From Escherichia phage BEU50: DNA of 64,000 nucleotides. Position 1 is the first letter of the stretch; the number at the start of each line of letters is the position of its first letter. The notes beneath the pieces were generated by a model. It worked only from the letters and a program-made list of their open reading frames with translations. It was not told the origin of the DNA and ran no database searches. This document shows, one piece after another, positions 8,262 to 45,610 of this stretch. The position numbers and the translations under genes were made by a program. The stretch is from sequence record OM632671.1; one strand, given 5' to 3'.

Positions 8262-8595
8262 AATTTTGGTTTTATGTATAGGATTAATTTCATTTTCTGC
8301 GTTAGCAGATACATCATATACTGAAATTAGAGAGTATGTAAACCGTACTGCAGCGGATTATTGCGGGAAAAATAAAGCATGCCAAGCTGAATTTGCGCAG
8401 AAATTAATATATGCATATAAAGACGGAGAAAGAGATAAATCAAGCAGATACAAAAATGATACATTGTTAAAACGATATGCTAAAAAGTGGAATACCTTAG
8501 AATGTTCAGTTGCGGAGGAGAAAGATAAAGCCGCTTGTCATTCAATGGTTGACCGTTTAGTAGATTCTTATAATCGAGGATTGAGTACTAGATGA
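8254..8595 (+). CDS. small secreted protein (vs position)
   Basis: 113 aa with N-terminal signal peptide (…FSALA). Confidence 0.5.
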   Translation: MTKILVLCIGLISFSALADTSYTEIREYVNRTAADYCGKNKACQAEFAQKLIYAYKDGERDKSSRYKNDTLLKRYAKKWNTLECSVAEEKDKAACHSMVDRLVDSYNRGLSTR

Positions 8596-9071
8596 TTGTA
8601 AAATATATCAAGGGCGATATTGTCGCCCTATTTCTTCAAGGTAATATTATTGCGCACGGGTGCAATTGCTTCCACACAATGGGCTCTGGCGTAGCAGGTC
8701 AATTAGCAAGAGCCTATCCCAAAATTTTAGAAATAGATAAAACCACTACCGAGTACGGTTCTCGTGATAAATTAGGCGATATGTCTATTGTTTTTAAACA
8801 TAGTCCTACGGGATTTGGTATATGCTATAACCTGTATACACAATACGAACCGGGTCCTAATCTTGATTATGGTGCTTTAGTAAACTGCATGATAGAATTA
8901 AATCTACAGGCAGAAACCCTTTTGTTTAAACCAGTAATTTACATTCCACGCATAGGTTGCGGTATTGCTGGTGGTGATTGGGATAAGGTTTCTAAATTAA
9001 TCGACATGTTTACTCCTGATATTGATTTAATAGTGGTGGATTATGAAAGTACATTACCCGCATCCGTTTGA
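8592..9071 (+). CDS. macro domain protein (ADP-ribose binding/hydrolase family)
   Basis: 159 aa; IAHGCNCFHTMGSGVAGQ motif typical of macro domains. Confidence 0.7.
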   Translation: MIVKYIKGDIVALFLQGNIIAHGCNCFHTMGSGVAGQLARAYPKILEIDKTTTEYGSRDKLGDMSIVFKHSPTGFGICYNLYTQYEPGPNLDYGALVNCMIELNLQAETLLFKPVIYIPRIGCGIAGGDWDKVSKLIDMFTPDIDLIVVDYESTLPASV

Positions 9072-13224: not shown

Positions 13225-13225
13225 T

Positions 13226-17158: not shown

Positions 17159-17809
17159 TTAATAATAGCCGAAATCTTGAACAGAATCCTTAATTACGAT
17201 TTGGTCAAATCGTGGAACGTGTGAAGGTTGAGATGCAGGATTCTGTGAAAAAAGGTTTGGCGCAGTTAAATTTCCTGTCATAGTGTCTCCAGAGCGTAAT
17301 ACCCTAGAGTTTGCATTTGCTGTAACAGTATTTATTGCTCCATCAACATAATCTTTACGAGTAGCATCTGATGCTGCGGAAGGAGTAGATGTAACAGTTA
17401 CAGATGGAGCCGTTACAGCTTTGGTAAATGTTGTCAAACCTTCTGGCGTAATAGTAATTTGTCCAGTAGTGATTTCACTACCTGCTGGTCTAAAACTAAT
17501 ACCGCCAGAAGAGCCACCAACTACAAGAGTATTACCAGTGCCGCCACCAGAACGAATTCGGATGGGGGTTTCATTATTACTTAATTGAAGATAACTATTT
17601 ACACCATAATTAATAGTAACTGGGCCTGTGTAAGTACCACCAGTAGATTTAGAAACGAAATCATTATCAGCTGCCTGTGGTTTATTATATTCTGAATATA
17701 TTTTAAATGATTTGTAGAGTACATCGTCACCGGCTGAATTCAACGGAAAATTTCCTTGATGCCAAATGACAGATCCACCTACAGTTGAACCTCCTTTTAA
17801 ATCAGCCAT
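17159..17809 (-). CDS. 36: long tail fibre subunit gp36
   Basis: 216 aa; N- and C-termini match gp36 as recalled. Confidence 0.9.
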
Positions 17810-17832
17810 AGTATGCCCATTTATTTTAATAT

Positions 17833-17840
17833 TATTTATA
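17833..17840 (-). promoter_or_regulatory. late promoter TATAAATA
   Basis: TATAAATA on minus strand 24 nt upstream of gene 36 ATG. Confidence 0.6.
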
Positions 17841-17842
17841 AA

Positions 17843-17866
17843 GAAAAAAGGAGCCCGGCGGCTCCC
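17843..17866 (-). terminator. hairpin GGAGCC-GCCG-GGCTCC plus T6 (minus strand)
   Basis: between gene 35 stop and gene 36 late promoter. Confidence 0.6.
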
Positions 17867-17871
17867 TCAGT

Positions 17872-18987
17872 TTAAACTTCTCTAAATTCCTGTCCAAACA
17901 CTTTACCAGTTTTAGACGATGCCTGTGTAGGAAGTACCATTATATCTGGAGGTGAAGCCGATTCACAGACATAATTAACGCGAATACCATTGACGCCAAA
18001 TTCGGCAGGTTTTGAAATGCCGCCATTTCTTGATACTTCAGAAAAGCTTAAATTTCTCATACCGCCTTGACCCGCTTGGGCGGTTCTCTGTGTGTATATC
18101 GTAAATCCTACTGCATTTTCAGGAACAACTACATAATCTTCTTTTAATTCCCAAGACCCAGCTTGCCCAGTAAACTCAGCTTGGGTCGAGGAAATATATC
18201 CATTTGATGCATCATAAAAACGAATAGATATATTTGCAGTTCCAAGATCAAGTAAATCAGCATCAGCATATAGTTGTGCTTTAAGATAAAGAACATCACC
18301 AGGAATTAAATTGTAGTCAGAAAGTTTACTTATAGCAGCTGAAGTTGGTAAACGCGCAATTTCATTATTAGTTCCACCAACCGCAGACATAAATTGCTCA
18401 ACGCTTTCGTATGTTCTTTTAGGAAATCCTGTAGCTCCGACGTCTTCTAAACTATCAAATACAACATCTAAAATAGTTTGATAATCATCTGTGCTTTTTC
18501 TATTACTTAGTTTAACATGCTCTAATGCAATAGCTCTTTTAGAAGAAGTATAAAAAGCAGCATATGACACGTCAAATCTTGACAATACTGAATCTGATGG
18601 AAAAACTGAAGTTCCTGCTCCCCTTAACCAAGATACCACTTCAGGAGGAAAATTAACCTTTCCGCTAGTTAATATAGCAACAAGTCTATTGTTTGACAAA
18701 GAATTCATGAAACTGACAAAAGTGGTAGATGTTGTATTGTTTGAAGCAGAAAAAGCATATGACTTACTATCAACTAATGCTCCCGTAGAAGGGTCAAAAA
18801 CTCTTAAATGAAGACCTGCACTAAATGTTTGATTTCCAACGGGATTATCCTGAAATTTAACATATGGTCCCGCAGTAGAAAGCGGGCAAGAACCCGCTAT
18901 GCTTATTTTATATCTTACTGAATTGCTTTCCGATAAAAATGGCGTTTGGACATATCCTTGTCCAAACTCTGCCATAAATTTTTCCAT
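17872..18987 (-). CDS. 35: long tail fibre hinge protein gp35
   Basis: 371 aa; position and length. Confidence 0.85.
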   Translation of the reverse strand: MEKFMAEFGQGYVQTPFLSESNSVRYKISIAGSCPLSTAGPYVKFQDNPVGNQTFSAGLHLRVFDPSTGALVDSKSYAFSASNNTTSTTFVSFMNSLSNNRLVAILTSGKVNFPPEVVSWLRGAGTSVFPSDSVLSRFDVSYAAFYTSSKRAIALEHVKLSNRKSTDDYQTILDVVFDSLEDVGATGFPKRTYESVEQFMSAVGGTNNEIARLPTSAAISKLSDYNLIPGDVLYLKAQLYADADLLDLGTANISIRFYDASNGYISSTQAEFTGQAGSWELKEDYVVVPENAVGFTIYTQRTAQAGQGGMRNLSFSEVSRNGGISKPAEFGVNGIRVNYVCESASPPDIMVLPTQASSKTGKVFGQEFREV

Positions 18988-18995
18988 AATACCTC

Positions 18996-21900
18996 TTATT
19001 CAACCCATTCAAATTTAACAGTTTTATTCACTGGGTCAGGAATAATGCGAACATTACCAATTCGTAAGAAATCACGAATAGTAAGATTACCTATTATTCC
19101 ATTATCAGATGGGATTGCTCCTATATCCGAAGGTTGAGGAGGATTACCTCCATCGAATACCTGAACAAAACTTGACCAAGAGTTTTTGGTTTTCTGCCAT
19201 GTACGTGTCCAGCGAGTGGTACGTGCTTCTGGGGTCGTTGGATAAGTAATCCAATCTTGGTAAAGTGAATCAAGTGTGTTACCAAACTGAGTCAATGTAC
19301 CAGGAGATTTAACTTCTTCACCGCGTTCTAAATATGGAAGTCCAGTCACTTCATTAGTTTTTTCAACCATTTTAAAATAACCCGGGAACTGGTTATAAGT
19401 GGCTGAATCATTAATATCGATTGACCAGAATCCTACAGTATCAGATGTTGGCGCACGGGTATATAAATCAGATGTTTTAACACCTTGAGAACGAATTCTC
19501 GAGTTAACAGTTAAACCGCCTGAACTTATAGTAGCACCTTTTGCAATGATTAAGCTTTCACCAATCGTTACTTGGCCAGATGCATTATTAATAGATAAAG
19601 GACGTAATCCATTAAATCCGCCAGTTTGATCACCCGATGCAGTAAGCATAAAATTCGTTACTGACCCATCATTGCGAACAATGAAACCATAATTTCCGTT
19701 AATAGCACGGAAAGCATTTGCGCTTCGAGAAATAATTTCACCAGTTGCAGTGACTGAATTACCAAATGTTGCTACACCATTTGCATTCAATGTTCCTGAA
19801 GCATTAACATTTATCGGTGTTACTGTACCGTTGATATTAAATGTTATATTTCCAGCTTTATTACGCTGAGAATAAAAATGACTAGACGTTTCATCACTAA
19901 CTTCAAATACGGTAGAACGTGTTGTGTCTGATTCCCCACTAAATTGATTTCCCCACACTCTGACTGTCATCGTTTGAGCCGGGTTTGTTCCAGTTTGAGG
20001 TCCTTTCTCAAAAATCAATCGAGTTGCCGTTCCAGTATTAGAAATAGTTAATGTACTATTTGCTGAAACTGATCCACCGAATGTAGCAGTACTAGATGAT
20101 ACAAGAGGGGCACTCAGATTCGTTTGTTGGGTTAAGGTTAGTGAACCATTAACTGTTTGTGCAATGTCCCTACGAATGAACTGGAGCGAATCTAGACCAT
20201 CTAATAAATTACTATCTACAGCTTTTGCTTTTAATGGCAAATAATTTGCTAATACGCGATTTAATTCATATGGTGATACTGCATAACCATTTTTCTCATA
20301 TGATTCTAATGGTTGTGTTGAACCTACCGTATCATTACCAACGAATGTAATTGAACCAGATGAAGTTTTAACAAACCCTCTTATCAGAGTAGTTGCTGCC
20401 CAAGTTGGTTCACTCTGCACAATCCATTTTAAATTTTTTGGAGATACAGCAGTATTTGCTGATGTTCCAGTCACAGTTTCAGACTGAGTTGCAACTTTAA
20501 TAACACCTTCCTGTGCTTCAGTAGATTTAGTACCTAAAAGCTTTTTAGGAGTTATTAAAACATTATCTAATGTTCCTGCAGCAGCTTCAACTTGTGTAGC
20601 TACACGAAGTGTACCACGCTGTGTCTCATTTGCTTCAAGAATATTAAGTGTATAATGGTCCCAGAGAGTTCCTGATTCAACTAATCCAGATAGAGCAACA
20701 ACAGAAGTACGATCAGTACTATTAAATCTAGTTTTAATTTTTAATGGTGTAGAGATGCGAGTATCGTCGACGCCTGCGTCGAATTCAACTTGCGTAGCAA
20801 TTTCAGCTATACCACTTAAACTTTCAGTTGCTCTACGGTCATTTAAAGTTTTAGGAGTGACTGCACGAGTATAGTCAGTTCCTGTGTTAACTTCACTTTG
20901 CGTAGCAATTTCAATTAAACCAATTCTTCCATCAGTTGATGTCTTTTTATGTAACGTTTCTGGCGTTACAACCGCATTTGCCCATCCTTCTTGGCTTTGT
21001 CCAGCAATTACTTCACTTTCAACTGCTAAAATTACTGCGCCTTGTTGCGTTGGAGTAGCTTTATACTGATCCAAAGCTTTAGGTGAAACAACTAAATTAT
21101 TAGTGTTTTTATTATAAACATTCGTACCATTTAATTCACGGCTAGAAGCTGGAGTAGCTCCTGCAGTAGATACATAAGTTACAATACCAGATAATGATTC
21201 AGAACCTTGGCGAGCTTGAAGCTTTTTAGGAGTGATGATTGTAGTATCATCAGTACCTGTATTAGTTTCCTGCTGCGTAGCAATTTCAGCGACACCTCTA
21301 CGAGTTTCTGTAGCAGTTCTTTCATTCAGCTTTTTAGGAGTGATGATAAGGTCATCTGCAAAAGAGAATGTGGTGTTCTGATTCACTTGAGCAGTAGTTG
21401 CTATTCTTGCAATACCTCTGCGAGTTTCTGTAGCAGTACGATTAGCTAACGTTTCTGGAGTAATTGCTAATTCTTTTTGTGGAGAATTTTCTAAATCAGC
21501 ATTTGCTTGAGCTTGCGTAGCTAAAGCAATTACGCCTAATCTTGCTCTAGTAGAAGCATTTAAAGAGTCTACTCTTTCTACAGTTGGAACGTTTTGCTGT
21601 ACAACCCAGCATTTTCCATCAGAATCTTCTATATAAGCAAGTTGTAAAACTGGAACATAATTAGTTTCACCGTTAAAAACTAATTCTTGAACTGTTACCC
21701 ATTCAGCTTCAGGCGGATATTCTGAACGTTTTGGGAATTGCAGCAATTGAACTGAGGAAGCAATTTTATCTTCACCTGCAGCTTTGATTTTAACTGTTTG
21801 TCCTTTTCTCATGTAATTCATGGAAATTTTAACAGTATCACCAACAGAAATATCAGTCGGAAGCTGAAGTTCAATTGTTTGGGTTGTTCCATTATTCGCG

Positions 21901-22865
21901 CCAAATACCATGACTTCTTCATTTGGACGAATATTAGAATTAGTTGTTATAATGCGTAAACGTGCTTTACTATCCCCGTCAAACAATCTCCACAATTTCT
22001 CATTATCATCAAACATCAAGAAACCGTCAATCGATGTACGGCCTTCAATGGAATGAGTTCCAACTTCTTGCACTGACGTTGTTTCATCATATGTCGTAAC
22101 AATTGTATGATAAAGTGGATTTAATTTATCTAAATCAACGAAATTAATGATATCTCCATGATTGGCAAATCTTGGAAGCTTAACATTAATCGGCGCGGCA
22201 GAAGTAAATCTACGTACGATAAAATCATTAGATTGTGCTTGATATGCAGTCGATGGAGTAACAATCGCAGCTTCTCTGCTATAATCAGCAATATACATTT
22301 GCCACAAACGATTATTAAAAATGAATACCATCTGTGACTTTGGATGAGTCATTAAAACTGAACGTACCTGTTCACCTCTAAAATTGACAATACTCTGATT
22401 TGAAGAATTTATTTTAACCTGATTTATGCCAGGTTTTCCACCGATATCTTGAATTATTACGGTTTCTCCATCAAGCGGAGAAGGTGGTAAAGTAAACTCA
22501 ATGTCATTGCCAACTGATGTATCTACTGAAATTGCTTCTCCGGATTTTAATTGATATGGTCCAGATGATACGGTTGTATATACAGCATCAGTACGTAATG
22601 CTTTCCAACGAATTCTATTAAAATTTCCAGCAGGTTTTGGAATATTATCCGTTGCTGCCCAAAAACGATTATTATAAATGATTACAAAATCTTTTAAATA
22701 TCCACGAGTTGGATCATATTGCTGAACTGTGTTTTCTTGAATTAAGTAATCAACGTTAACACCGTCAGTTCCTACGGTACGATCAGCTAAAGCTACGTTG
22801 ATTATTTTATCGCCACCTGCGTCCAGACCATCTTCTGCTCTGAACTTTCTTTTAATCTCGGCCAT
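18996..22865 (-). CDS. 34: long tail fibre proximal subunit gp34
   Basis: 1289 aa with internal repeats; divergent from rnh. Confidence 0.9.
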   Translation of the reverse strand: MAEIKRKFRAEDGLDAGGDKIINVALADRTVGTDGVNVDYLIQENTVQQYDPTRGYLKDFVIIYNNRFWAATDNIPKPAGNFNRIRWKALRTDAVYTTVSSGPYQLKSGEAISVDTSVGNDIEFTLPPSPLDGETVIIQDIGGKPGINQVKINSSNQSIVNFRGEQVRSVLMTHPKSQMVFIFNNRLWQMYIADYSREAAIVTPSTAYQAQSNDFIVRRFTSAAPINVKLPRFANHGDIINFVDLDKLNPLYHTIVTTYDETTSVQEVGTHSIEGRTSIDGFLMFDDNEKLWRLFDGDSKARLRIITTNSNIRPNEEVMVFGANNGTTQTIELQLPTDISVGDTVKISMNYMRKGQTVKIKAAGEDKIASSVQLLQFPKRSEYPPEAEWVTVQELVFNGETNYVPVLQLAYIEDSDGKCWVVQQNVPTVERVDSLNASTRARLGVIALATQAQANADLENSPQKELAITPETLANRTATETRRGIARIATTAQVNQNTTFSFADDLIITPKKLNERTATETRRGVAEIATQQETNTGTDDTTIITPKKLQARQGSESLSGIVTYVSTAGATPASSRELNGTNVYNKNTNNLVVSPKALDQYKATPTQQGAVILAVESEVIAGQSQEGWANAVVTPETLHKKTSTDGRIGLIEIATQSEVNTGTDYTRAVTPKTLNDRRATESLSGIAEIATQVEFDAGVDDTRISTPLKIKTRFNSTDRTSVVALSGLVESGTLWDHYTLNILEANETQRGTLRVATQVEAAAGTLDNVLITPKKLLGTKSTEAQEGVIKVATQSETVTGTSANTAVSPKNLKWIVQSEPTWAATTLIRGFVKTSSGSITFVGNDTVGSTQPLESYEKNGYAVSPYELNRVLANYLPLKAKAVDSNLLDGLDSLQFIRRDIAQTVNGSLTLTQQTNLSAPLVSSSTATFGGSVSANSTLTISNTGTATRLIFEKGPQTGTNPAQTMTVRVWGNQFSGESDTTRSTVFEVSDETSSHFYSQRNKAGNITFNINGTVTPINVNASGTLNANGVATFGNSVTATGEIISRSANAFRAINGNYGFIVRNDGSVTNFMLTASGDQTGGFNGLRPLSINNASGQVTIGESLIIAKGATISSGGLTVNSRIRSQGVKTSDLYTRAPTSDTVGFWSIDINDSATYNQFPGYFKMVEKTNEVTGLPYLERGEEVKSPGTLTQFGNTLDSLYQDWITYPTTPEARTTRWTRTWQKTKNSWSSFVQVFDGGNPPQPSDIGAIPSDNGIIGNLTIRDFLRIGNVRIIPDPVNKTVKFEWVE

Positions 22866-22899
22866 TCTCCCGGGCTCCTATTGTGTTTTCAATAATAAG

Positions 22900-22907
22900 T
22901 ATTTATA
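22900..22907 (-). promoter_or_regulatory. late promoter TATAAATA
   Basis: 35 nt upstream of gene 34 ATG on minus strand. Confidence 0.65.
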
Positions 22908-22910
22908 CTT

Positions 22911-22940
22911 GTTTACTTTAAGATTTAGATAGTATATAAT
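22911..22940 (+). promoter_or_regulatory. T4-type early promoter
   Basis: GTTTAC, 18 nt, TATAAT upstream of rnh; -10 flanked by AGATTT/AAATCT dyad. Confidence 0.65.
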
Positions 22941-22969
22941 AGAAATCTCACTAATTGAACGAGGTTCAT

Positions 22970-23887
22970 ATGGATTTAGAAATGATGTTGGATGAAGATT
23001 ACAAAGAAGGAATTTGCTTAATTGACTTTAGTCAGATTGCGCTTTCAACTGCTCTGGTAAACTTCCCAGATAAAGAAAAAATTAATTTATCAATGGTTCG
23101 TCATTTGATATTGAACTCAATTAAGTTTAATGTCAAAAAAGCAAAAACGCTTGGATACACTAAAATTGTGCTGTGTATTGATAACGCGAAATCTGGATAC
23201 TGGCGTCGTGATTTTGCTTATTATTATAAGAAAAACCGTGGAAAAGCACGAGAAGAATCTACTTGGGACTGGGAAGGTTATTTTGAATCCAGCCATAAAG
23301 TTATAGATGAATTGAAAGCTTATATGCCATACATTGTTATGGATATTGATAAGTATGAAGCAGATGACCACATTGCTGTTCTTGTTAAAAAGTTCTCTTT
23401 AGAAGGACATAAGATTTTAATCATTTCATCGGATGGTGACTTTACACAGCTTCACAAATATCCAAATGTTAAGCAATGGTCACCGATGCATAAGAAATGG
23501 GTTAAAATTAAAAGCGGTTCTGCTGAAATTGACTGTATGACTAAAATCCTTAAAGGCGACAAAAAGGATAACGTTGCTTCAGTTAAAGTACGATCTGACT
23601 TTTGGTTTACCAAAGTTGAAGGTGAACGGACTCCTTCAATGAAAACTTCAATCGTTGAAGCTATTGCTAATGATCGTGAGCAAGCTAAGGTGCTTCTCAC
23701 AGAATCTGAATATAATCGTTATAAAGAAAATTTAGTTCTAATTGATTTTGATTATATTCCTGATAATATTGCTTCAAACATTGTGAATTACTATAATTCA
23801 TATAAATTACCACCGCGTGGCAAAATTTATTCATATTTTGTAAAAGCGGGTCTTTCTAAATTAACTAATAGCATTAATGAATTTTGA
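22970..23887 (+). CDS. rnh: RNase H / 5-prime-3-prime exonuclease (FEN family)
   Basis: 305 aa from ATG 22970 (MDLEMML…) with RBS GAGG. Confidence 0.9.
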   Translation: MDLEMMLDEDYKEGICLIDFSQIALSTALVNFPDKEKINLSMVRHLILNSIKFNVKKAKTLGYTKIVLCIDNAKSGYWRRDFAYYYKKNRGKAREESTWDWEGYFESSHKVIDELKAYMPYIVMDIDKYEADDHIAVLVKKFSLEGHKILIISSDGDFTQLHKYPNVKQWSPMHKKWVKIKSGSAEIDCMTKILKGDKKDNVASVKVRSDFWFTKVEGERTPSMKTSIVEAIANDREQAKVLLTESEYNRYKENLVLIDFDYIPDNIASNIVNYYNSYKLPPRGKIYSYFVKAGLSKLTNSINEF

Positions 23888-23895
23888 GGTGAATA

Positions 23896-24165
23896 ATGGC
23901 TAAAAAAGAAATGGTTGAATTTGATGAAGCTATCCATGGCGAAGACTTGGCTAAATTTATTAAAGAAGCATCTGATCATAAACTGAAAATTTCCGGTTAT
24001 AATGAACTGATTAAAGATATTCGAATTCGTGCTAAAGATGAACTTGGCGTTGATGGTAAGATGTTTAATCGTCTATTAGCTTTGTATCATAAAGATAACC
24101 GTGATGTGTTTGAAGCTGAAACTGAAGAGGTAGTTGAACTTTATGACACAGTTTTCTCTAAATGA
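23896..24165 (+). CDS. dsbA: dsDNA-binding protein DsbA
   Basis: 89 aa, position between rnh and 33. Confidence 0.8.
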   Translation: MAKKEMVEFDEAIHGEDLAKFIKEASDHKLKISGYNELIKDIRIRAKDELGVDGKMFNRLLALYHKDNRDVFEAETEEVVELYDTVFSK

Positions 24166-24481
24166 CATTCGTCCGGTCGATGAGACCGGTCTTTCAGAAA
24201 AAGAACTTTCAATTAAGAAAGAAAAGGATGAAATAGCAAAGCTTCTTGATCGTCAAGAAAATGGATTTATTATTGAAAAAATGGTAGAAGAGTTTGGAAT
24301 GAGTTATCTTGAAGCTACAACAGCATTCTTAGAAGAAAATTCTATTCCTGAAACTCAATTTGCTAAATTTATTCCTTCGGGTATAATTGAAAAAATTCAG
24401 TCAGAAGCTATTGACGAAAATCTTTTACGTCCTTCTGTTGTTCGTTGTGAAAAAACTAATACATTAGATTTTCTACTATGA
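24143..24481 (+). CDS. 33: late transcription accessory protein gp33
   Basis: 112 aa from ATG 24143 (MTQFSLNDI…). Confidence 0.85.
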   Translation: MTQFSLNDIRPVDETGLSEKELSIKKEKDEIAKLLDRQENGFIIEKMVEEFGMSYLEATTAFLEENSIPETQFAKFIPSGIIEKIQSEAIDENLLRPSVVRCEKTNTLDFLL

Positions 24482-24537
24482 TTAAACTCCGCATGCCTGC
24501 TGGTGGTGAAAGATACATTGATGGTAAATCAGTTTAG
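24478..24537 (+). pseudogene. 59: helicase loader gene 59, 19-codon N-terminal stub
   Basis: [19 protein letters not shown] then TAG; downstream sequence is not gene 59. Confidence 0.6.
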
Positions 24538-27253: not shown

Positions 27254-27915
27254 ATGAGCACAGTTTTTAATACAAACCCAGTTGATGTTTTAAAAGAACC
27301 TATGTTTTTTGGTTCAGGTCTTGGTATTGCGCGTTATGATATTCAACGCCATAAAGTTTTTGAAGATTTGACCGAAAAGCAATTGTCATTTTTCTGGCGT
27401 CCTGAAGAAGTAAACTTAATGATGGATGCTGCACAGTTTAATAAGCTTCCTCAGTATCAGCAAAATATTTTTACTAATAACCTGAAGTATCAATCACTTT
27501 TGGATAGCATTCAGGGTCGTGCGCCATCTGCTGTACTTATGTCATTAATTTCAGACCCGAGTCTTGATACATGGGTTGCTACATGGACTTTTAGTGAAAC
27601 TATTCACAGCCGTTCATATACACATATCATGCGAAATCTTTATACTGATCCATCGAAGGTATTTGATGAGATTGTATTAGATGAAGCTATTATGAAACGT
27701 GCTGAATCTATCGGTCGCTATTATGATGATGTTCTGATTAAAACCCGTGAATGGGAAAATGCTAAAGAATTTGTAGAACTAGCTAAAGAATCTCCTGATG
27801 CTGTCTTTCGTTTAAACCGAGCTATTAAACAAGAAGCCGAAGCTAAACGTGCTTTAATGAAATCTCTTTACCTCTGTTTGCACGTTATTAATGCCTTAGA
27901 AGCATTCGTTTTTAT
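27254..27915 (+). CDS. nrdB: ribonucleotide reductase small subunit, exon 1 (3-prime boundary approximate)
   Basis: NrdB-like sequence to …LYLCLHVINALEA; frame then runs into intron. Confidence 0.75.
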
Positions 27916-28038
27916 GTATCTTTTGCGTAAAATGCGCCTTTAAACGGTAACGTTTATCGAAAACTCCTTTAATTGCTGGAAAGTCCTTTATAGGAAAACT
28001 AGCAGCCAAGGTTTTGCTTGCACCTTTAATTAGTATAA

Positions 28039-28046
28039 TATAAATA
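28039..28046 (+). promoter_or_regulatory. late promoter TATAAATA inside intron
   Basis: 28 nt upstream of the intron ORF start. Confidence 0.5.
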
Positions 28047-28073
28047 TGGTTATACTTTTAAGAGGATGCACAA

Positions 28074-38730: not shown

Positions 38731-38771
38731 AGACCTGTACCAACAAACAACTTAAACATCTGGAGAATAAA

Positions 38772-39137
38772 ATGAACTACATCAACTTCGAACGTAAATA
38801 TGTTTCTAACGGTATCGCTGGTTCTTCTGAAGTTATTTGCTTATGGAAACACGAAAACGGTACAGTTTGTGAAATCGAACAGTGCATGACTCCTAATTAC
38901 GTTTATATGCGATTTGAAAACGGTATCACGGTTTCAATCACGATGGAAGGTTCAAATTTTAAAATTGCATTAGATGATGATTTCCGTCAGCGTGATTTAG
39001 GTACTCATCCTTGCTGGAATGGTGTTAATCGTAAACTTCTGGTTAAAACTTGGATTCGTCATATCCTGAGTAACCGAGCTAAACCTGAACATCTCGAAGC
39101 AATCTTTGATGTAGTTCTTAACGAATTTGATATCTAA
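38772..39137 (+). CDS. hypothetical protein (30.x cluster)
   Basis: 121 aa, RBS CTGGAGAA. Confidence 0.5.
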   Translation: MNYINFERKYVSNGIAGSSEVICLWKHENGTVCEIEQCMTPNYVYMRFENGITVSITMEGSNFKIALDDDFRQRDLGTHPCWNGVNRKLLVKTWIRHILSNRAKPEHLEAIFDVVLNEFDI

Positions 39138-39145
39138 ATTAATTG

Positions 39146-39161
39146 GGAGCTTCGGCTCCCA
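39146..39161 (+). other. intercistronic stem-loop GGGAGC-TTCG-GCTCCC without T-run
   Basis: perfect 6 bp stem with UUCG loop just upstream of RBS. Confidence 0.4.
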
Positions 39162-39172
39162 CTGAGGAAATT

Positions 39173-39787
39173 ATGTTTAAAGTTAATACTTTTTATAAAA
39201 TGAATTTTAAAAATGGGGATATTACTCCACGCCTTAAAAACATGTTCTCATATGACCTTATCGAGCCTTTTGAAGTTTTAGAAGTTACTGATGCCGGCTC
39301 GGTTTGTGAAATTAGAACTTCTGAAGGTAAAATTTATCAGGCAGGTGTTGGTAAATTCAGTAATTGTTTTTCTTTAATATTCTCGACCGATTTAGATGAG
39401 CATTTTATTGAATGTCCTAACCCTAAGGTCTATGAAGTTCCACATCAAGAAACTAAGAAAAATGGACCGCACGAATATACGAAGGTTGAAACTCCTCACG
39501 GCGTGATGTGGCGACATAACTCTCCTTTTGGAAGTAAAGGAACATTTGCTCAACTGGCTAAGCCCTACGACGATGAAAAATATGTAGTAGTCCTTTTATC
39601 TGAACAGGGTACTCAAGACCGTGGATGCCAGCGTTCCGGTTTATTGAGTGAACTCGAAGCTCATAACCTAGCACGTGAATTCGTTGAGAAAAATCCTGGT
39701 TCTGAAGCTCTAGTCATGAAAGCAATTACTCAATATATCACTGCTCAACCTGTTGTTCATCCGGTAGAAATTAATTTCATTAAGTAG
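39173..39787 (+). CDS. hypothetical protein (30.x cluster)
   Basis: 204 aa from ATG 39173 with RBS GAGGAA. Confidence 0.5.
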   Translation: MFKVNTFYKMNFKNGDITPRLKNMFSYDLIEPFEVLEVTDAGSVCEIRTSEGKIYQAGVGKFSNCFSLIFSTDLDEHFIECPNPKVYEVPHQETKKNGPHEYTKVETPHGVMWRHNSPFGSKGTFAQLAKPYDDEKYVVVLLSEQGTQDRGCQRSGLLSELEAHNLAREFVEKNPGSEALVMKAITQYITAQPVVHPVEINFIK

Positions 39788-39841
39788 TGTACATCCAAGG
39801 ACGGATTAGAGTATAATGATTTCTTTAGTAAGTGGAAAAAT

Positions 39842-40039
39842 ATGAAATTTTTAATAGCACAAACAGTCCAATTAAAAGGTGTTGGAATCCCTGGGATGAT
39901 TTTTAAAGTTCTCAACGAATTTAAAACTGCCGCTGGAATTATCAATGAAGCGTATGCTGTTCAATGGGTTGATGGGACTTCTGACATACGTATGGGTAAA
40001 GAGTTATCTCCTATTAAAGGGTTGAAACATGTTGAATAA
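39842..40039 (+). CDS. hypothetical small protein
   Basis: 65 aa ORF. Confidence 0.4.
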   Translation: MKFLIAQTVQLKGVGIPGMIFKVLNEFKTAAGIINEAYAVQWVDGTSDIRMGKELSPIKGLKHVE

Positions 40040-40247
40040 ATTAATCCAGAAATTGTTTGGTACGGAAATGATTGAAGTTACTTATCGTGTAACCGACGTT
40101 TTTCCATATTACGCGGAAAACCGTTTAGAACCATACGTTACGTCAATTAAAATGCCTAAAAATGACAGAAATTTATCTATCGAAGACCGTATACCTGGAT
40201 ACGGACATTGGGCTGATGTTGAAATTATAAGTGTTAAAGATGTCTGA
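40029..40247 (+). CDS. hypothetical small protein
   Basis: 72 aa ORF. Confidence 0.4.
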   Translation: MLNKLIQKLFGTEMIEVTYRVTDVFPYYAENRLEPYVTSIKMPKNDRNLSIEDRIPGYGHWADVEIISVKDV

Positions 40248-40698
40248 ATTAGAAATAAGAAGTAATTTCAAATGGCCGTCATGTGCATTAAGTAACTTTG
40301 CTCAATGGCCTTTTGTTATGGATGGTATTCAATTCGGAGGTCTTGAAGGATTTCTCCAAGGATGTAAGGTGAAAAATGTTGAACAACAAAGACGTATATT
40401 TGGGTTGTCTGGATTGGCTGCACAGCAAGCTGGAAGGTCTTACGCAAGAGCTCAGGACCGTGGGACTCTCTTCTGGTTCGGAGTTCCATTTTCAAGATAC
40501 TCCGAAGCGTGGAAAGAATTATACACAAATGCATATTTTGAAGCCGCGATCCAAAACAAGGGGTTTCGTGATGCCTTACAAGCCTCTAAAGGAAAAATTT
40601 TGAAGCACAGCATGGCCAGCCACCTAACAAAAGATGATACAATACTAACTGAAGATGAATTTATTGACGTGTTAAACCTATTAAGAGACTCTTTATGA
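40240..40698 (+). CDS. NADAR-domain (YbiA-like) protein
   Basis: 152 aa from ATG 40240; LSNFAQWPFVMDG…LEGFLQGCKV resembles YbiA FSNFAAWPIKVDG…SEHYFQAQKF. Confidence 0.65.
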   Translation: MSELEIRSNFKWPSCALSNFAQWPFVMDGIQFGGLEGFLQGCKVKNVEQQRRIFGLSGLAAQQAGRSYARAQDRGTLFWFGVPFSRYSEAWKELYTNAYFEAAIQNKGFRDALQASKGKILKHSMASHLTKDDTILTEDEFIDVLNLLRDSL

Positions 40699-41510
40699 AG
40701 CCTACTATTTTGACTGATATTGATGGTGTATGTTTAAGCTGGCAATCTGGACTTCCTTATTTTGCCCAAAAATATAACCTTCCATTAGAACATATTTTAA
40801 AAATGATTCAGGACGAAAAATTTATTTCTCCTGGTAAACTGTTCAATACCGACGATAACCTTGGTAAACAATTAATAGAAAAATATAATAGCTCTGATTT
40901 TATTCGTTACTTAGCGCCTTATTCTGATGCTCTTCGAGTTATCAATAAACTAAAAGAAGACTATAATTTTGTAGCCGTGACGGCGCTAGGTGATTCAATT
41001 GATGCTCGATTGAATAGACAATTTAATTTGAATGCTTTGTTCCCAGGCGCTTTCTCTGAAGTAATGATGTGTGGTCATGATTCTTCAAAGGAACAATTAT
41101 TCGAACTAGCTAAAACAAAATATAACGTAATTTGTTACGTTGACGATTTAGCTCATCATTGTGACCATGCGGCAGAAATTCTTAATGTACCGATTTATTG
41201 GTTGGCTCGTGGTGAACGTGATGCCATTCCTCGTACTGCACAACGTGTACACACGTGGGATGATATTGAATCTCGTTTGGTTCTGCCTAAGAATAATTCA
41301 GATTCAGATCGTGAAGACCTTTTAAAACGATTGGCGGATTTGCTTAAAGAATCTGGTGCAACAAGTCCAGGTGCATGGCCTAATCAAATTGGCGCTCCGT
41401 CGAATCCGTATACCTGGCGAACCCTAGGACCAACCGATATGCAGCCATGGTGGACGATTCAAAACTTTCCTTTAGATTCGTCTAAATGGACTTGGTCTAT
41501 AAATTGTTAA
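40695..41510 (+). CDS. HAD-superfamily hydrolase-like protein
   Basis: 271 aa; N-terminal LTDIDGV motif. Confidence 0.55.
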   Translation: MKPTILTDIDGVCLSWQSGLPYFAQKYNLPLEHILKMIQDEKFISPGKLFNTDDNLGKQLIEKYNSSDFIRYLAPYSDALRVINKLKEDYNFVAVTALGDSIDARLNRQFNLNALFPGAFSEVMMCGHDSSKEQLFELAKTKYNVICYVDDLAHHCDHAAEILNVPIYWLARGERDAIPRTAQRVHTWDDIESRLVLPKNNSDSDREDLLKRLADLLKESGATSPGAWPNQIGAPSNPYTWRTLGPTDMQPWWTIQNFPLDSSKWTWSINC

Positions 41511-41519
41511 GGGATAATT

Positions 41520-41789
41520 ATGTTTGTAGTTCATGATATTACAGATGGCAAAAACACCACACGTGACTACGGTCATGTTAACATGTTCTTTCGAGACTGG
41601 CCATTGTTTCGTTCAGTAAAAGACGCAGAAATATTTAAAGAGTGTGTTGAACAAGGGTTCATCTACATTTCAGAATATTATGTTGAAGGTCTCGGTAAAT
41701 GGATTACAACTTATCAGAAAACGCTGAAATCGCTTCTAGATGAAGTGGCTTATAATAGAACCGTAACCAAAATCGAGGACATCAAATGA
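41520..41789 (+). CDS. hypothetical small protein
   Basis: 89 aa ORF upstream of ligase. Confidence 0.45.
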   Translation: MFVVHDITDGKNTTRDYGHVNMFFRDWPLFRSVKDAEIFKECVEQGFIYISEYYVEGLGKWITTYQKTLKSLLDEVAYNRTVTKIEDIK

Positions 41790-43279
41790 TTTTAGATATT
41801 TTAAACCAAATAGCTGCGATCGGTTCTACTAAAACAAAACAAGAAATCCTTAAGAAAAATAAGGACAACAAATTACTTGAACGTGTGTATCGTTTAACAT
41901 ATGCACGTGGTATCCAGTATTATATTAAGAAATGGCCAGGACCAGGTGAAAGGTCCCAAGCATATGGTCTTCTTGAATTAGATGACATGTTGGATTTTAT
42001 TGAGTTCACATTAGCCACTCGTAAACTCACCGGTAATGCCGCAATTAAAGAGCTCATGGGTTATATCGCTGACGGTAAACCTGATGATGTAGAAGTCCTT
42101 CGTCGTGTAATGATGCGCGACCTTGAAGTAGGTGCTTCAGTGTCTATCGCGAATAAGGTGTGGCCTGGACTTATTCAATTGCAACCACAGATGTTAGCAT
42201 CTGCATATGATGAGAAATTGATTACTAAAAATATTAAATGGCCTGCATTTGCTCAATTAAAAGCCGATGGTGCTCGTTGTTTCGCTGAAGTTCGCGATGA
42301 TGGTGTTCAATTCTTTTCTCGTGCTGGTAATGAATACCATGGTCTTACCCTATTAGCAGATGAATTAATGGAAATGACTAAAGAAGCTCGTGAAAGACAT
42401 CCTAATGGGGTTTTAATCGACGGTGAATTAGTTTACCATTCATTTGATATTAAAAAGGCTGTGAGCTCAGGAAATGACCTGTCGTTCTTATTTGGTGATA
42501 ATGAAGAATCCGAAGAAGTACAAGTTGCGGACCGTAGCACTTCAAACGGTTTAGCAAATAAATCTCTTCAAGGGACTATTTCTCCTAAAGAAGCTGAAGG
42601 TATGGTTCTTCAAGCCTGGGACTATGTTCCTTTAGATGAAGTCTATTCTGATGGCAAAATTAAAGGTCAGAAATACGATGTTCGTTTTGCTGCTCTTGAA
42701 AATATGGCTGAAGGCTTTAAACGAATTGAGCCAATTGAAAATCAGTTAGTTCGTAATCTTGACGAAGCTAAAGTGGTTTATAAAAAATATGTTGACCAAG
42801 GTCTTGAAGGTATTATCCTTAAAAACCGTGATTCATATTGGGAAAACAAACGTTCTAAGAACCTAATTAAATTTAAAGAAGTTATTGATATCGCTTTAGA
42901 AGTTGTAGGATACTATGAACACTCTAAAGACCCTAACAAATTAGGTGGTGTCGAACTCGTATCACGTTGTCGTCGTATTACAACCGATTGTGGTTCAGGG
43001 TTTAAAGATACAACTCATAAAACAGTTGATGGTGTAAAGGTTCTTATTCCTTTAGATGAGCGACATGATTTGGACCGTGAACGATTAATGACCGAAGCTC
43101 GTGAAGGTAAATTGATTGGACGTATTGCTGATTGTGAATGCAATGGTTGGGTTCATTCTAAAGGACGTGAAGGCACTGTAGGTATTTTCCTCCCAATTAT
43201 TAAAGGGTTCCGTTTTGATAAAACAGAAGCGGATTCGTTTGAAGACGTATTTGGACCACGGTCCCAGACAGGTTTATAA
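41786..43279 (+). CDS. 30: ATP-dependent DNA ligase
   Basis: 497 aa; motif I KADGAR. Confidence 0.9.
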   Translation: MILDILNQIAAIGSTKTKQEILKKNKDNKLLERVYRLTYARGIQYYIKKWPGPGERSQAYGLLELDDMLDFIEFTLATRKLTGNAAIKELMGYIADGKPDDVEVLRRVMMRDLEVGASVSIANKVWPGLIQLQPQMLASAYDEKLITKNIKWPAFAQLKADGARCFAEVRDDGVQFFSRAGNEYHGLTLLADELMEMTKEARERHPNGVLIDGELVYHSFDIKKAVSSGNDLSFLFGDNEESEEVQVADRSTSNGLANKSLQGTISPKEAEGMVLQAWDYVPLDEVYSDGKIKGQKYDVRFAALENMAEGFKRIEPIENQLVRNLDEAKVVYKKYVDQGLEGIILKNRDSYWENKRSKNLIKFKEVIDIALEVVGYYEHSKDPNKLGGVELVSRCRRITTDCGSGFKDTTHKTVDGVKVLIPLDERHDLDRERLMTEAREGKLIGRIADCECNGWVHSKGREGTVGIFLPIIKGFRFDKTEADSFEDVFGPRSQTGL

Positions 43280-43467
43280 TGAAAGCTTATTTAGAAACAG
43301 TTATTGTAGCTAAGAAGGATGGTGGAGATGTTTCCACCTCTTGCTCTCAGATTATATTAGATTTTCCTAATAACGATTCCTATCATATTTTTATGGACAA
43401 TTTCGATAAGTACGAAAAAGGCTCTAATTTTGAAGTTTATCGTACTTTGCTTCCGATTGTGGATTAA
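43279..43467 (+). CDS. hypothetical small protein
   Basis: 62 aa, ATG overlaps ligase stop. Confidence 0.4.
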   Translation: MKAYLETVIVAKKDGGDVSTSCSQIILDFPNNDSYHIFMDNFDKYEKGSNFEVYRTLLPIVD

Positions 43468-43487
43468 GAGCCTTCGGGCTCTTTTTG
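43467..43487 (+). terminator. hairpin AGAGCC-TTCG-GGCTCT plus T-run
   Basis: perfect stem, UUCG loop, TTTTTGG. Confidence 0.65.
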
Positions 43488-43522
43488 GCATAAATATAAA
43501 TTATTACTAAAAGGAAAACACT

Positions 43523-45610
43523 ATGTCTGAACAATTAAATGAAGTGTTTGAATCTGAAGGCAGTCTTCCTGTCGTCAATTTGAACCCTAAAGCTAAAGTT
43601 CCACAAGTCTGGAAAATTGGTGATATCGATACAAATATTGTAGTTCGTTTATTCTCTTACCTTTCCGAAGGCGACGCTGTAAAACAAGTTAAACTTGGCG
43701 ACAAATACGCTCATGTTGTTATTATGAGTCTGTCTGAAAAGGGTAATCTCGCTGAATTGAAAAATGGCCTTGGTCCTGCTCCTATTGATGCAATCAACAC
43801 CATTTTCAATACAGTATATGAACAAGTTAAAGCTCTTCGTATGGATGCAGTTCTGTTCCGATTCCCTACCAAGAAATTGAAAGGACGTGGACAACAGCTT
43901 CAAACTCTTCTTGCTCGTTTAGTTTCTACTAAAACCGGTGGTCGTTTTAAAGTATTGTCGGCAATGTATCAATTCACAGGTAAACACACCTATGTGATGA
44001 TGGTTCGTAAAAATGCCAACATTGAAGATATTAAAGGCATCCCTAACATTAACACAGAGTTGTACACGAAAGTAGATTCTGATGTTGGCGAAGTTTATGT
44101 GAGTAAAAAGACCGGCGAAAAAGTCACCAAAGAAACGGCTATCGCTGGTTCTATTGCTGCTGTAGAAGAAAAACGTAAAGATAAGCCTGTTATTGCTCGT
44201 ACTAAAATTTCTCGTCGTGCTATTGCCGCAAGCCAATCTTTAGAAGCTGACCGCCAAGAAGGTGAGTTATTCCAGAAATACGAAAATTCTGCTAAAGAAG
44301 TTAGTGGCCCGGCTACAGCCGAATTACTTCCTGAAGCATATGAAATCGTACTAGCCCAAGCATCATCCACAGCAAAAGGCACTTTAGTTGCTGATATCGA
44401 AAATAAGATTTATAATCGTATTGATGAATCCTTTAGATTTGCTGATGAAGTTTCTTATGGTAGTGTTATTAAGCCAACTTTAGAAAAGTTTGCTAAGAAA
44501 ATTAAAACTGAAAAAACAACATCTGTTAAAGCATTAGCTGCTTTTGTTGAAGCTGCAAACGAAATTGCGGACTCTATTAAAGACGAATGGTTTGAAGATT
44601 TTAGACGTGATAATTTCCAACTGGCCGACGATGTTTTAGCTGAAGTATCTGAAAAAACTTGGAAACAACGTAAATCAGCGTTCTTGTCTAATGTGATGTA
44701 TACTTATGCACGAGAATCGGCTAGAGGCACCTTTAATATAACAATGAATCGGGACCCTAAACAATACTCTGTTGCTGAAAAACGAGCTATTCGCGAATAT
44801 GCCTCTTCTGCGTATACCGATATCAATAATATGTTGTTAGGTCGTTATAAACCAGATTTTTACGATGTTGCAGATGAAGATGAAGTTAAACGCGCTATTG
44901 ATGGTCTTGATTCGGCGTTTTTAAATGGAGACCGTTTACCTGAAGGACTAACGTTATATAGAGCTCAGTCTATCAGAATGCCTATTTACGAAGCAATGGT
45001 TAAAAATAAGGTATTCTACTTCAGAAACTATGTTTCCACTTCACTAGCTCCTATTATTTTCGGTGGGTTTAAAGAGAACGTTGCCCTTGGACTTGCTCCT
45101 GAAGAAGTTCGCAAAGAGCTTAACATTGACAATAATGACGAAGGTGTTACCATTTCTCCTAGTCAAGTAAGAACAGCTATGCATGCGCCAGAACAAATCC
45201 GTGTTAACGTTGGATGGGCTATTGATGGCGCCCATAAAGTTAACGTGATTTATCCAGGACAGTTGAGTAATCACCCTAATGAGCAAGAAATTATTTTGCC
45301 TAGAGGCATTCTCTTGCAGATAAATAAAATTACAGATGCGTCATCTGACACCGGTGCAGGTTTAGAATCCAACCTTAAATTTATTCAAGCTGAAGTCATG
45401 TCCTCGGACCAGTTGGACGAAGCTGTCATTTACGATGGTGATGTTCTCATGGAAACAGGCGAGGTAGTTGCTATGACGGGTGAAATCGAATCAGATGAGC
45501 CGGTATCTTTTGCCTCATTTGTAGAAAAAACTAGTGCACCTAAAGGTTTGAAATTGTTAGCATCTTTAATGGATTTAGAATCAGTTCCGTTTAAATTTAT
45601 CCAAGGATAG
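43523..45610 (+). CDS. alt: Alt ADP-ribosyltransferase (packaged)
   Basis: 695 aa; ART-like R/STS/E arrangement (LYRAQS, STS, QEIILP); position next to gene 54. Confidence 0.8.
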   Translation: MSEQLNEVFESEGSLPVVNLNPKAKVPQVWKIGDIDTNIVVRLFSYLSEGDAVKQVKLGDKYAHVVIMSLSEKGNLAELKNGLGPAPIDAINTIFNTVYEQVKALRMDAVLFRFPTKKLKGRGQQLQTLLARLVSTKTGGRFKVLSAMYQFTGKHTYVMMVRKNANIEDIKGIPNINTELYTKVDSDVGEVYVSKKTGEKVTKETAIAGSIAAVEEKRKDKPVIARTKISRRAIAASQSLEADRQEGELFQKYENSAKEVSGPATAELLPEAYEIVLAQASSTAKGTLVADIENKIYNRIDESFRFADEVSYGSVIKPTLEKFAKKIKTEKTTSVKALAAFVEAANEIADSIKDEWFEDFRRDNFQLADDVLAEVSEKTWKQRKSAFLSNVMYTYARESARGTFNITMNRDPKQYSVAEKRAIREYASSAYTDINNMLLGRYKPDFYDVADEDEVKRAIDGLDSAFLNGDRLPEGLTLYRAQSIRMPIYEAMVKNKVFYFRNYVSTSLAPIIFGGFKENVALGLAPEEVRKELNIDNNDEGVTISPSQVRTAMHAPEQIRVNVGWAIDGAHKVNVIYPGQLSNHPNEQEIILPRGILLQINKITDASSDTGAGLESNLKFIQAEVMSSDQLDEAVIYDGDVLMETGEVVAMTGEIESDEPVSFASFVEKTSAPKGLKLLASLMDLESVPFKFIQG

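What the first reader, a model, noticed from the sequence alone, without database searches (positions are those of the whole stretch)
40240..40698. NADAR (YbiA-like) domain protein in the gene 30.x cluster
The motif block LSNFAQWPFVMDGIQF…LEGFLQGCKV parallels E. coli YbiA FSNFAAWPIKVDGKTW…SEHYFQAQKF. NADAR proteins act on ADP-ribose derivatives and some reverse ADP-ribosylation of nucleic acid bases. Together with the macro domain ORF and Alt, the window encodes one writer and two putative erasers of ADP-ribosylation, which could form a counter-defence toolkit.
Basis: partly seen in the sequence, partly recalled or inferred. Interest (0 to 1): 0.55.

Follow-up and report, generated by a model that had tools for sequence, protein, structure and literature searches.

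The report
Known anti-DarT NADAR enzyme AdfN

Summary
The ORF at 40240..40698 (+) is real. It encodes 152 aa and matches Pfam PF08010 (Phage_30_3) at E=4.7e-69. It is 95% identical, over the same length, to T4 gp30.3.

The NADAR assignment holds:
- The family profile aligns to E. coli YbiA at hhalign E=3.9e-7.
- 21 of 59 family members also match Pfam NADAR.
- E36, K43 and the phage-specific H123 are invariant across the family.

T4 gp30.3 has already been characterised as AdfN. It is a DNA ADP-ribosylglycohydrolase that removes DarT1-made guanine ADP-ribosylation and is necessary and sufficient for T-even resistance to DarTG1 (Nat Commun 2025; Toxins 2024).

The window allele lacks the RB69 frameshift (extra T at nt 411) that inactivates the gene, so it is predicted to be functional.

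Tk.4 was named AdfM in a 2025 preprint and acts against DarTG2. Alt is present, but nothing found here links it to either eraser.

Verdict: observation confirmed, interpretation supported, already known, low interest.

The parts
40240..40698 (+). adfN (gene 30.3 orthologue): 152-aa phage-type NADAR DNA ADP-ribosylglycohydrolase. It is full length.
40288..40371 (+). N-terminal conserved NADAR motif block (residues 17-44, LSNF...EGFLQ..K).
   Evidence: Columns L17 S18 N19 F20 F25 E36 G37 F38 Q40 K43 are invariant in 59 homologues. The block aligns to YbiA residues 29-56.
40345..40347 (+). Codon GAA = Glu36, a catalytic residue.
   Evidence: Read from the sequence. Invariant in the family. Aligns to YbiA E48. 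E36A impairs T4 AdfN in vivo and abolishes activity in vitro (PMC11825919).
40366..40368 (+). Codon AAG = Lys43, a catalytic residue.
   Evidence: Read from the sequence. Invariant in the family. Aligns to YbiA K55. K43A impairs T4 AdfN.
40606..40608 (+). Codon CAC = His123. This is the histidine at the last beta-strand that replaces the Glu of YbiA-type or the Asp of DarG1-type NADARs, and it is the signature of the gp30.3 subfamily.
   Evidence: Invariant in 59 homologues. It sits directly after strand 120-122 of the model. The hhalign alignment ends at K122/YbiA V124, so H123 lines up with YbiA E125. The subfamily definition comes from PMC11125620 and PMC11543638.
40651..40692 (+). C-terminal alpha-helix (residues 138-151) that is lost in the inactive RB69 allele. 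The RB69 extra T would fall just upstream, at gene nt 411 (window 40650).
   Evidence: Helix H138-151 in the model. The DNA alignment shows the extra T only in RB69 and not in the window, T4 or phage a20. Loss of this helix reduces activity.
40029..40247 (+). Context: 30.4-like ORF (72 aa) whose stop overlaps the adfN start.
   Evidence: phrog_2042 E=2.4e-35. T4 has 30.4 in the same position.
40695..41510 (+). Context: 30.2-like ORF (271 aa, weak HAD-like hydrolase signal) whose ATG overlaps the adfN stop.
   Evidence: HAD_2 E=0.013, below the cut-off. phrog_420 E=3.1e-77. It is linked to 30.3 only in T4-like contigs, not in distant family members.
8592..9071 (+).
   Evidence: PF01661 E=1.3e-7. 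58% identical to T4 Tk.4. Its only NCBIfam match is antitoxin DarG. Function of T4 Tk.4: bioRxiv 10.1101/2025.11.20.689424.
43523..45610 (+).
   Evidence: PF03496 E=6e-28. 41% identical to T4 Alt over the full length.

Best explanation
The gene is adfN (T4 gene 30.3), an orphan, antitoxin-like NADAR enzyme of T-even phages. When the phage infects a cell carrying the DarTG1 toxin-antitoxin defence, the DarT1 toxin ADP-ribosylates guanine bases in phage single-stranded DNA and blocks replication. AdfN hydrolyses the ribosyl-guanine bond, releases ADP-ribose and restores the DNA, so the phage replicates. Catalysis uses Glu36 and Lys43, which contact the ADP-ribose, plus His123, the subfamily-specific replacement for the third acidic residue. 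The C-terminal helix is needed for full activity. The enzyme acts on guanine-ADPr only. It does not act on the thymine-ADPr made by DarT2, and it does not bind DarT1. What is shown here: the ORF, its fold, its catalytic residues, its intact reading frame and its 95% identity to T4 AdfN. What is shown in the literature for the T4 protein: enzymatic activity, necessity and sufficiency against DarTG1, and guanine specificity. What is inferred: that this particular allele, with 7 substitutions that all lie away from the catalytic residues, behaves the same way.
Against: No experiment was done on this allele. It carries seven substitutions relative to T4 AdfN (K11R, F80L, E89P, I120V, M125I, H128G, D139A, written window-to-T4). 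F80 is specific to the window even compared with its closest relative, phage a20. The protein does not hit the Pfam NADAR model directly. T4 AdfN does not rescue uninfected E. coli from DarT1 and only weakly rescues non-T-even phages, so the simple 'free-standing eraser' picture is incomplete: an unidentified T-even factor seems to be required. The promoter scan gave no signal above background (23 sites against 18.1 +/- 3.6 expected), so early expression is taken from the literature and not shown here.
Confidence: 0.93

Rival explanations
1. The allele is a non-functional remnant, as in phage RB69, so the phage would be DarTG1-sensitive despite carrying the gene.
For: The block carrying the gene is most similar to Mosigvirus (RB69-like) genomes. 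RB69 itself has an inactive allele. Truncated database homologues exist, for example clusters of 83-126 aa among the hits.
Against: The reading frame is intact and exactly as long as T4 AdfN. The RB69 extra T is absent. All catalytic residues and the C-terminal helix are present. The 36:7 ratio of synonymous to non-synonymous differences indicates purifying selection. The RB69 relatives Bas46 and Bas47 have full-length alleles and are DarTG1-resistant.
Confidence: 0.03
2. The main substrates are soluble ADP-ribose-derived immune signals or RNA-repair by-products rather than ADP-ribosylated DNA. This was proposed for phage NADARs on contextual grounds.
For: Iyer et al. [quoted passage not shown] Distant gp30.3-family members sit near NUDIX and Thg1 genes.
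Against: For the T4 orthologue, the DNA de-ADP-ribosylation activity and the DarTG1-specific phenotype have been shown directly. No phenotype linked to a signalling defence has been reported in the papers read.
Confidence: 0.02
3. It reverses the phage's own ADP-ribosylation marks (Alt, ModA, ModB). This is the writer-eraser pair the first reader implied.
For: alt lies 2.8 kb downstream on the same strand. T4-like NADARs are said to be expressed early together with the ARTs.
Against: Every activity reported for NADARs in the papers read here is on base-linked ADP-ribose, and guanine specificity was shown for T4 gp30.3. The adfN-alt adjacency is limited to T4-like synteny and is absent around distant family members. 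Alt is 41-44% identical to its T4 counterpart while AdfN is 95%, so the two do not co-evolve.
Confidence: 0.01
4. It is a housekeeping YbiA-type N-glycosidase acting on riboflavin-pathway intermediates.
Against: The YbiA-defining glutamate is replaced by histidine. Published phylogeny places the gp30.3 group nearest the DarT1-associated NADARs, not the YbiA group. YbiA itself also hydrolyses guanine-ADPr in vitro.
Confidence: 0.01

Closest known systems
AdfN of phage T4 (gp30.3, anti-DarT factor NADAR; Johannesman et al., Nat Commun 2025, PMC11825919)
   Same: Orthologue. 95% identical, 152 aa in both, same E36/K43/H123, same C-terminal helix, same position between 30.4 and 30.2 upstream of the ligase and alt.
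   Different: Seven conservative or surface-type substitutions. It is carried on a Mosigvirus-like (RB69-like) block rather than in T4 itself. It has not been tested experimentally.
RB69 gp30.3 (naturally inactive adfN allele)
   Same: Same genus-level genomic background and near-identical DNA.
   Different: RB69 has an extra T at nt 411 that frameshifts and removes the last helix. The window allele does not have it.
DarG1, the DarT1-associated NADAR antitoxins (e.g. Geobacter lovleyi NADAR, PDB 8bat; E. coli C7 NADAR)
   Different: AdfN has no N-terminal extension (152 aa against 219). It has His instead of the catalytic Asp. It is not encoded next to a DarT. It cannot act as an antitoxin in uninfected cells.
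E. coli YbiA (PDB 2b3w) and the YbiA subfamily of NADARs
   Different: About 20% identity. YbiA has Glu125 where AdfN has His123. It is a chromosomal gene in a LexA-controlled operon with dinG and is linked to riboflavin metabolism.
AdfN of Bas32 and Bas60 (independently acquired phage NADARs)
   Same: Same counter-defence logic and the same guanine specificity.
   Different: They belong to other NADAR clades, work without a T-even background, and can neutralise DarT1 in uninfected cells.
AdfM (T4 Tk.4), the macrodomain anti-DarTG2 factor
   Same: Same strategy, an orphan antitoxin-like eraser of DNA ADP-ribosylation. An orthologue is present in this window at 8592..9071.
   Different: Unrelated fold (Macro). 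It acts against thymine-ADPr made by DarT2, not guanine-ADPr.

Membership tests
Phage gp30.3 / AdfN(T4)-type NADAR subfamily (Pfam PF08010) | Significant match to the PF08010 profile over its full length | tested here: met
   E=4.7e-69, 231 bits against a cut-off of 36, profile positions 1-138 of 138. All 59 aligned homologues also match.
Phage gp30.3 / AdfN(T4)-type NADAR subfamily (Pfam PF08010) | Histidine in place of the third catalytic acidic residue at the last beta-strand | tested here: met
   H123 is invariant in 59 sequences, follows strand 120-122 in the model, and lines up with YbiA E125 by extension of the hhalign alignment. The criterion comes from PMC11125620 and PMC11543638.
Phage gp30.3 / AdfN(T4)-type NADAR subfamily (Pfam PF08010) | Intact C-terminal helix (absence of the RB69-type frameshift) | tested here: met
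   Helix 138-151 is in the model. There is no extra T at nt 411. Length equals T4 AdfN.
Phage gp30.3 / AdfN(T4)-type NADAR subfamily (Pfam PF08010) | Conserved T-even synteny (30.4 - 30.3 - 30.2 - 30.1 - ligase - alt) | tested here: met
NADAR superfamily | [quoted passage not shown] | tested here: met
NADAR superfamily | Conserved catalytic Glu and Lys in the E-x2-F/L-Q-x2-K motif | tested here: met
   E36 and K43 are invariant and align to YbiA E48 and K55. They were shown to matter in T4 AdfN and in E. coli C7 NADAR.
NADAR superfamily | Direct match to Pfam PF08719 (NADAR) | tested here: not met
   There is no PF08719 hit for this protein at E<=1. The link is transitive: 21 of 59 family members hit PF08719 (best 1.5e-7), and hhalign to YbiA gives E=3.9e-7. 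This reflects how Pfam splits the superfamily. It is not evidence against homology.
NADAR superfamily | ADP-ribosylglycohydrolase activity on guanine-ADPr DNA | not testable with these tools
   Shown for the 95%-identical T4 protein. Inferred for this allele.
Anti-DarT counter-defence factors (Adf) | Necessary and sufficient for phage growth on a DarTG1 host | not testable with these tools
   Shown for T4 and T2 adfN by deletion, complementation and transposon screen. Inferred here.
DarG1-type (DarT1-associated) NADAR antitoxins | Encoded in an operon with a DarT1 toxin gene | tested here: not met
   The neighbours are 30.4, 30.2 (HAD-like), 30.1 (DUF3045) and the ligase. No neighbouring ORF has a DarT domain. 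The protein is an orphan.
DarG1-type (DarT1-associated) NADAR antitoxins | N-terminal extension and catalytic Asp (D171 in E. coli C7 NADAR) | tested here: not met
   The NADAR core starts at residue ~3 of 152. His occupies the position of the acidic residue.
YbiA subfamily | Conserved Glu in the last strand (E125 of YbiA) | tested here: not met
   H123 is at that position.

The most novel reading that the evidence does not exclude
T4-type AdfN is reported to need an unidentified T-even-specific factor for full activity. The most novel reading my data do not exclude is that this factor is one of the two genes translationally coupled to adfN in this window: the 30.4-like ORF (stop overlapping the adfN start) or the HAD-like 30.2 ORF (start overlapping the adfN stop). 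This 30.4-30.3-30.2 arrangement is seen in the T4-like contigs examined (L002, L011), although one has an extra ORF between 30.3 and 30.2 (L012). A second open possibility is that AdfN also removes other base-linked ADP-ribose, on RNA or cytidine, made by other defence systems.
Probability: 0.08. Interest if true: 0.45.

Novelty: already known. Interest (0 to 1): 0.12.

Why it matters
It matters mainly for annotation. Public records still label this gene 'hypothetical protein': every hit, phage a20, and T4 RefSeq. It can be named adfN, a DNA ADP-ribosylglycohydrolase that counters DarTG1. Together with the Tk.4/AdfM orthologue, it predicts that a phage carrying these genes resists both DarTG1 and DarTG2. 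That is useful for predicting host range and for choosing therapeutic phages. The allele is an intact copy in an RB69-like background, whereas RB69 itself is the natural loss-of-function case. The very high conservation (95% aa against 44-73% for its immediate neighbours 30.4, 30.2, 30.1, ligase and alt) supports strong, continuing selection by guanine-ADP-ribosylating defences. No new biology is revealed.

Tried and rejected
1. Direct phmmer search against PDB sequences found nothing at E<=10. Only the family profile found YbiA.

2. A direct Pfam NADAR hit was sought and not found. The link had to be made through other family members, hhalign and structure.

3. A conserved functional partner was sought by looking at neighbourhoods of distant family members.
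- In T4-like contigs (L002, L011, L012) 30.2 follows 30.3.
- In the 308-kb contig L005 and in L008 the downstream genes are unrelated to gp30.2 (BLASTP E=1.6; no Pfam hits), and no ART gene is nearby.
- So there is no family-wide linkage to 30.2 or to alt.

4. I tested whether the T4-annotated internal ORF 30.3' (window 40376..40603, +1 frame, 75 aa) shows signs of selection.
- The open +1 frame is no longer than in synonymous-codon shuffles in 8 homologues (p = 0.05-0.72).
- The +1 products are not visibly similar between divergent homologues.
- I rejected it as evidence of an overlapping gene.

5. The promoter and terminator scan of 37.3-43.4 kb was at background level. I drew no conclusion on transcription.

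6. NCBIfam has no model for the protein.

7. The idea that the window's non-colinearity affects the finding was rejected. The window from 26075 to 64000 is colinear with natural Mosigvirus genomes.

Full report
**Observation**

The mechanical ORF list gives 40231..40698 from a GTG. The ATG at 40240 is the evident start, because it overlaps the stop of the upstream 72-aa ORF (ATGTCTGA). The adfN stop in turn overlaps the ATG of the next ORF (ATGA at 40695-40698). The product is 152 aa. The quoted motif is residues 17-44 of this product. The quoted YbiA string is residues 29-56 of E. coli K-12 YbiA.

**Identity**

- Pfam assigns the protein to PF08010 (Phage_30_3) at E=4.7e-69 over the whole profile. 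It gives no direct hit to the NADAR model PF08719. PHROGs gives only a family of unknown function.
- The surrounding genes are the T4 30.x cluster in T4 order: 30.8, 30.7, an unassigned 204-aa ORF, 30.5, 30.4, 30.3, 30.2, 30.1, DNA ligase, alt.
- The protein is 145/152 identical to T4 gp30.3, with no gaps and the same length.
- The DNA from 26075 to 64000 is colinear with Mosigvirus (RB69-like) genomes such as phage a20, at 97-98% identity.

**Is it a NADAR?**

- A search of about 5.8 billion proteins gave 82 homologues. All carry PF08010, one also has a recorded PF08719 hit, and three are named 'YbiA (DUF1768 family)' by JGI.
- In an alignment of 59 homologues, going down to 34% identity, the following positions are invariant: P13, A16, L17, S18, N19, F20, F25, E36, G37, F38, Q40, K43, Q50, A61, A112, H123, L136, T137.
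- When each member is scanned separately, 21 of 59 also match Pfam NADAR, best E=1.5e-7.
- hhalign of the profile against YbiA gives 92.8% probability and E=3.9e-7 over residues 15-122.
- An AlphaFold2 model built on the alignment is confident: pLDDT 92.9, pTM 0.88.
- Foldseek against the PDB returns YbiA, the Geobacter lovleyi NADAR and the Phytophthora NADAR as its top three hits.
- E36 and K43 align to YbiA E48 and K55. H123 falls opposite YbiA E125.

The fold assignment is therefore secure. The protein belongs to the histidine-bearing phage subfamily of NADARs described in the literature.

**What it does**

This has already been worked out for the T4 orthologue.

- Schuller et al. 2023 showed that NADARs hydrolyse guanine-linked ADP-ribose and serve as the antitoxins of DarT1. 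They noted that phage NADARs carry His at the third catalytic position (PMC11543638).
- Toxins 2024 showed that purified T4 gp30.3 removes guanine-ADPr but not thymine-ADPr from DNA, and that it does not protect uninfected cells from DarT1 (PMC11125620).
- Johannesman et al. 2025 mapped DarTG1 resistance of T-even phages to gene 30.3 and renamed it adfN (PMC11825919). They showed the following:
  - Deletion sensitises T4 and T2 to DarTG1.
  - Expression in trans rescues RB69.
  - E36A and K43A impair the protein.
  - It does not bind DarT1.
  - It does not counter DarTG2.
  - RB69 is sensitive because an extra T at nt 411 truncates the last helix.
- A 2025 transposon screen confirmed that adfN is conditionally essential on DarTG1 hosts (bioRxiv 10.1101/2025.11.20.689424).

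**Is this allele functional?**

- Aligning the window gene with RB69, T4 and a20 shows that the RB69 insertion is absent here.
- The frame is open to the same stop as in T4. The C-terminal helix (residues 138-151) is present in the model.
- The seven differences from T4 avoid E36, K43 and H123.
- Between the window and T4 the gene has 36 synonymous and 7 non-synonymous codon differences.
- At 95% aa identity it is much more conserved than ligase (68%), 30.2 (73%), 30.1 (58%), 30.4 (54%) or alt (44%). This argues for strong purifying selection.

I therefore predict an active AdfN. This is an inference from sequence, not a measurement.

**The 'toolkit' claim**

The macro-domain ORF exists at 8592..9071 (PF01661).
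- It is the orthologue of T4 Tk.4, at 58% identity.
- Its only NCBIfam match is the DarG antitoxin.
- T4 Tk.4 was recently named AdfM and shown to be required on DarTG2 hosts.

So the two 'erasers' do form a counter-defence pair, one against DarT1 (guanine) and one against DarT2 (thymine).

Alt is present (41% identical to T4 Alt), but nothing connects it to either eraser.
- The NADAR activities reported in the papers read are all on base-linked ADP-ribose.
- The adfN-alt adjacency is T4-type synteny that disappears around distant family members.
- Alt and AdfN evolve at very different rates.

**Surroundings and open points**

I looked for a conserved partner that might be the unidentified T-even factor AdfN needs for full activity.
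- 30.2 follows 30.3 in T4-like contigs.
- It does not in a 308-kb contig or in another distant lineage.
- The translational coupling with 30.4 and 30.2 leaves these as candidates only.

The T4-annotated internal ORF 30.3' is retained at 40376..40603. Its openness is what synonymous shuffling predicts, so I do not regard it as a gene.

**The window itself**

The first ~24.5 kb of the window is not colinear with any of 50,697 phage records. Mapped on T4, the blocks are as follows:

| Window block | Corresponding T4 region |
|---|---|
| ~41-5032 | 5.3 to 1.3 kb (topoisomerase to rIIA) |
| 6158-17016 | 63.8 to 44.4 kb (vs.6 to mid-nrdD) |
| 17016-24536 | 156.7 to 149.1 kb (start of gene 37 to gene 33) |
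| 24537 onward | 143.1 kb downward |

- The junctions cut nrdD and gene 37.
- Genes 32, 59, frd and td are missing between blocks.
- The middle blocks are about 98% identical to a Tequatrovirus (SHFML-26), while the rest is Mosigvirus-like.

This looks like a chimeric assembly or a defective recombinant. It does not touch the adfN locus. It does mean that the macro ORF and adfN may not come from one genome.

**Verdict**

The feature is an orthologue of a characterised protein. Novelty: already known. Interest is low. The practical value is correct annotation and the prediction of DarTG1 (and DarTG2) resistance.

Noticed in passing
window 1-26000 (junctions near 6158, 17016, 24537): The left part of the window is a patchwork not found in any of 50,697 phage records. 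Mapped on T4, the blocks jump 1.3 kb -> 63.8 kb, 44.4 kb (inside nrdD) -> 156.7 kb (inside gene 37), and 149.1 kb -> 143.1 kb (genes 59, 32, frd and td are missing). The middle blocks are ~98% identical to Tequatrovirus SHFML-26, while 26075-64000 is colinear with Mosigvirus genomes. This suggests a chimeric assembly or a defective recombinant.
   Followed up: partly
window 8592-9071 (+): Macro-domain ORF (159 aa). It is the orthologue of T4 Tk.4 (58% identity), recently named AdfM and shown to be needed on DarTG2 hosts. Its only NCBIfam match is antitoxin DarG.
   Followed up: yes
window 35090-36082 (+): 330-aa DAHP synthase I family protein (PF00793, E=6e-75) directly upstream of dCMP deaminase, where T4 has the small cd.1-cd.3 ORFs. 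Phage a20 annotates the same gene as phospho-2-dehydro-3-deoxyheptonate aldolase. This would be an auxiliary aromatic-amino-acid pathway gene in a T-even phage.
   Followed up: partly
window 40376-40603 (+), inside adfN in the +1 frame: The 75-aa internal ORF that T4 annotates as 30.3' is retained. However, the open +1 frame is no longer than expected from synonymous-codon shuffles in 8 homologues (p 0.05-0.72), so there is no sign that it is a selected overlapping gene.
   Followed up: yes
window 39143-39787 (+): A 204-214-aa ORF sits where T4 has the 95-aa gene 30.6. It has no Pfam or NCBIfam match, and phage a20 annotates it as hypothetical. RB69 has a short 30.6 there. This is a variable slot in the 30.x cluster.
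   Followed up: partly
window 27254-29521 (+): nrdB is split into two ORFs (27254..27943 and 28988..29521, both PF00268) by an insert carrying a 269-aa ORF (28074..28883). Phage a20 annotates that ORF as an intron-like DNA endonuclease, which resembles the T4 nrdB group I intron arrangement.
   Followed up: no
window 36082-45610, adfN compared with its neighbours: Divergence from T4 is very uneven within one colinear block. AdfN is 95% aa identical, gp31 96% and gp30.7 93%. In contrast ligase is 68%, cd 72%, 30.2 73%, 30.4 54% and Alt 44%. AdfN is among the most constrained genes of the cluster.
   Followed up: partly
L005 5001-5468 (308-kb metagenomic contig) and L008 5001-5468: gp30.3-type NADARs with the same invariant E/K/H occur at about 38% identity in large non-T4-like contigs. 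Their neighbours differ (AAA ATPase, NUDIX and Thg1 in L005; GGDEF in L008). The His-type subfamily therefore extends beyond Tevenvirinae synteny.
   Followed up: partly
window 15206-17103 (+): A 273-aa ORF with no T4 counterpart sits between endonuclease VII (gene 49) and nrdD. nrdD here lacks the T4 I-TevII intron (T4 45850 joins directly to 44814) before being cut off at the 17016 junction.
   Followed up: no
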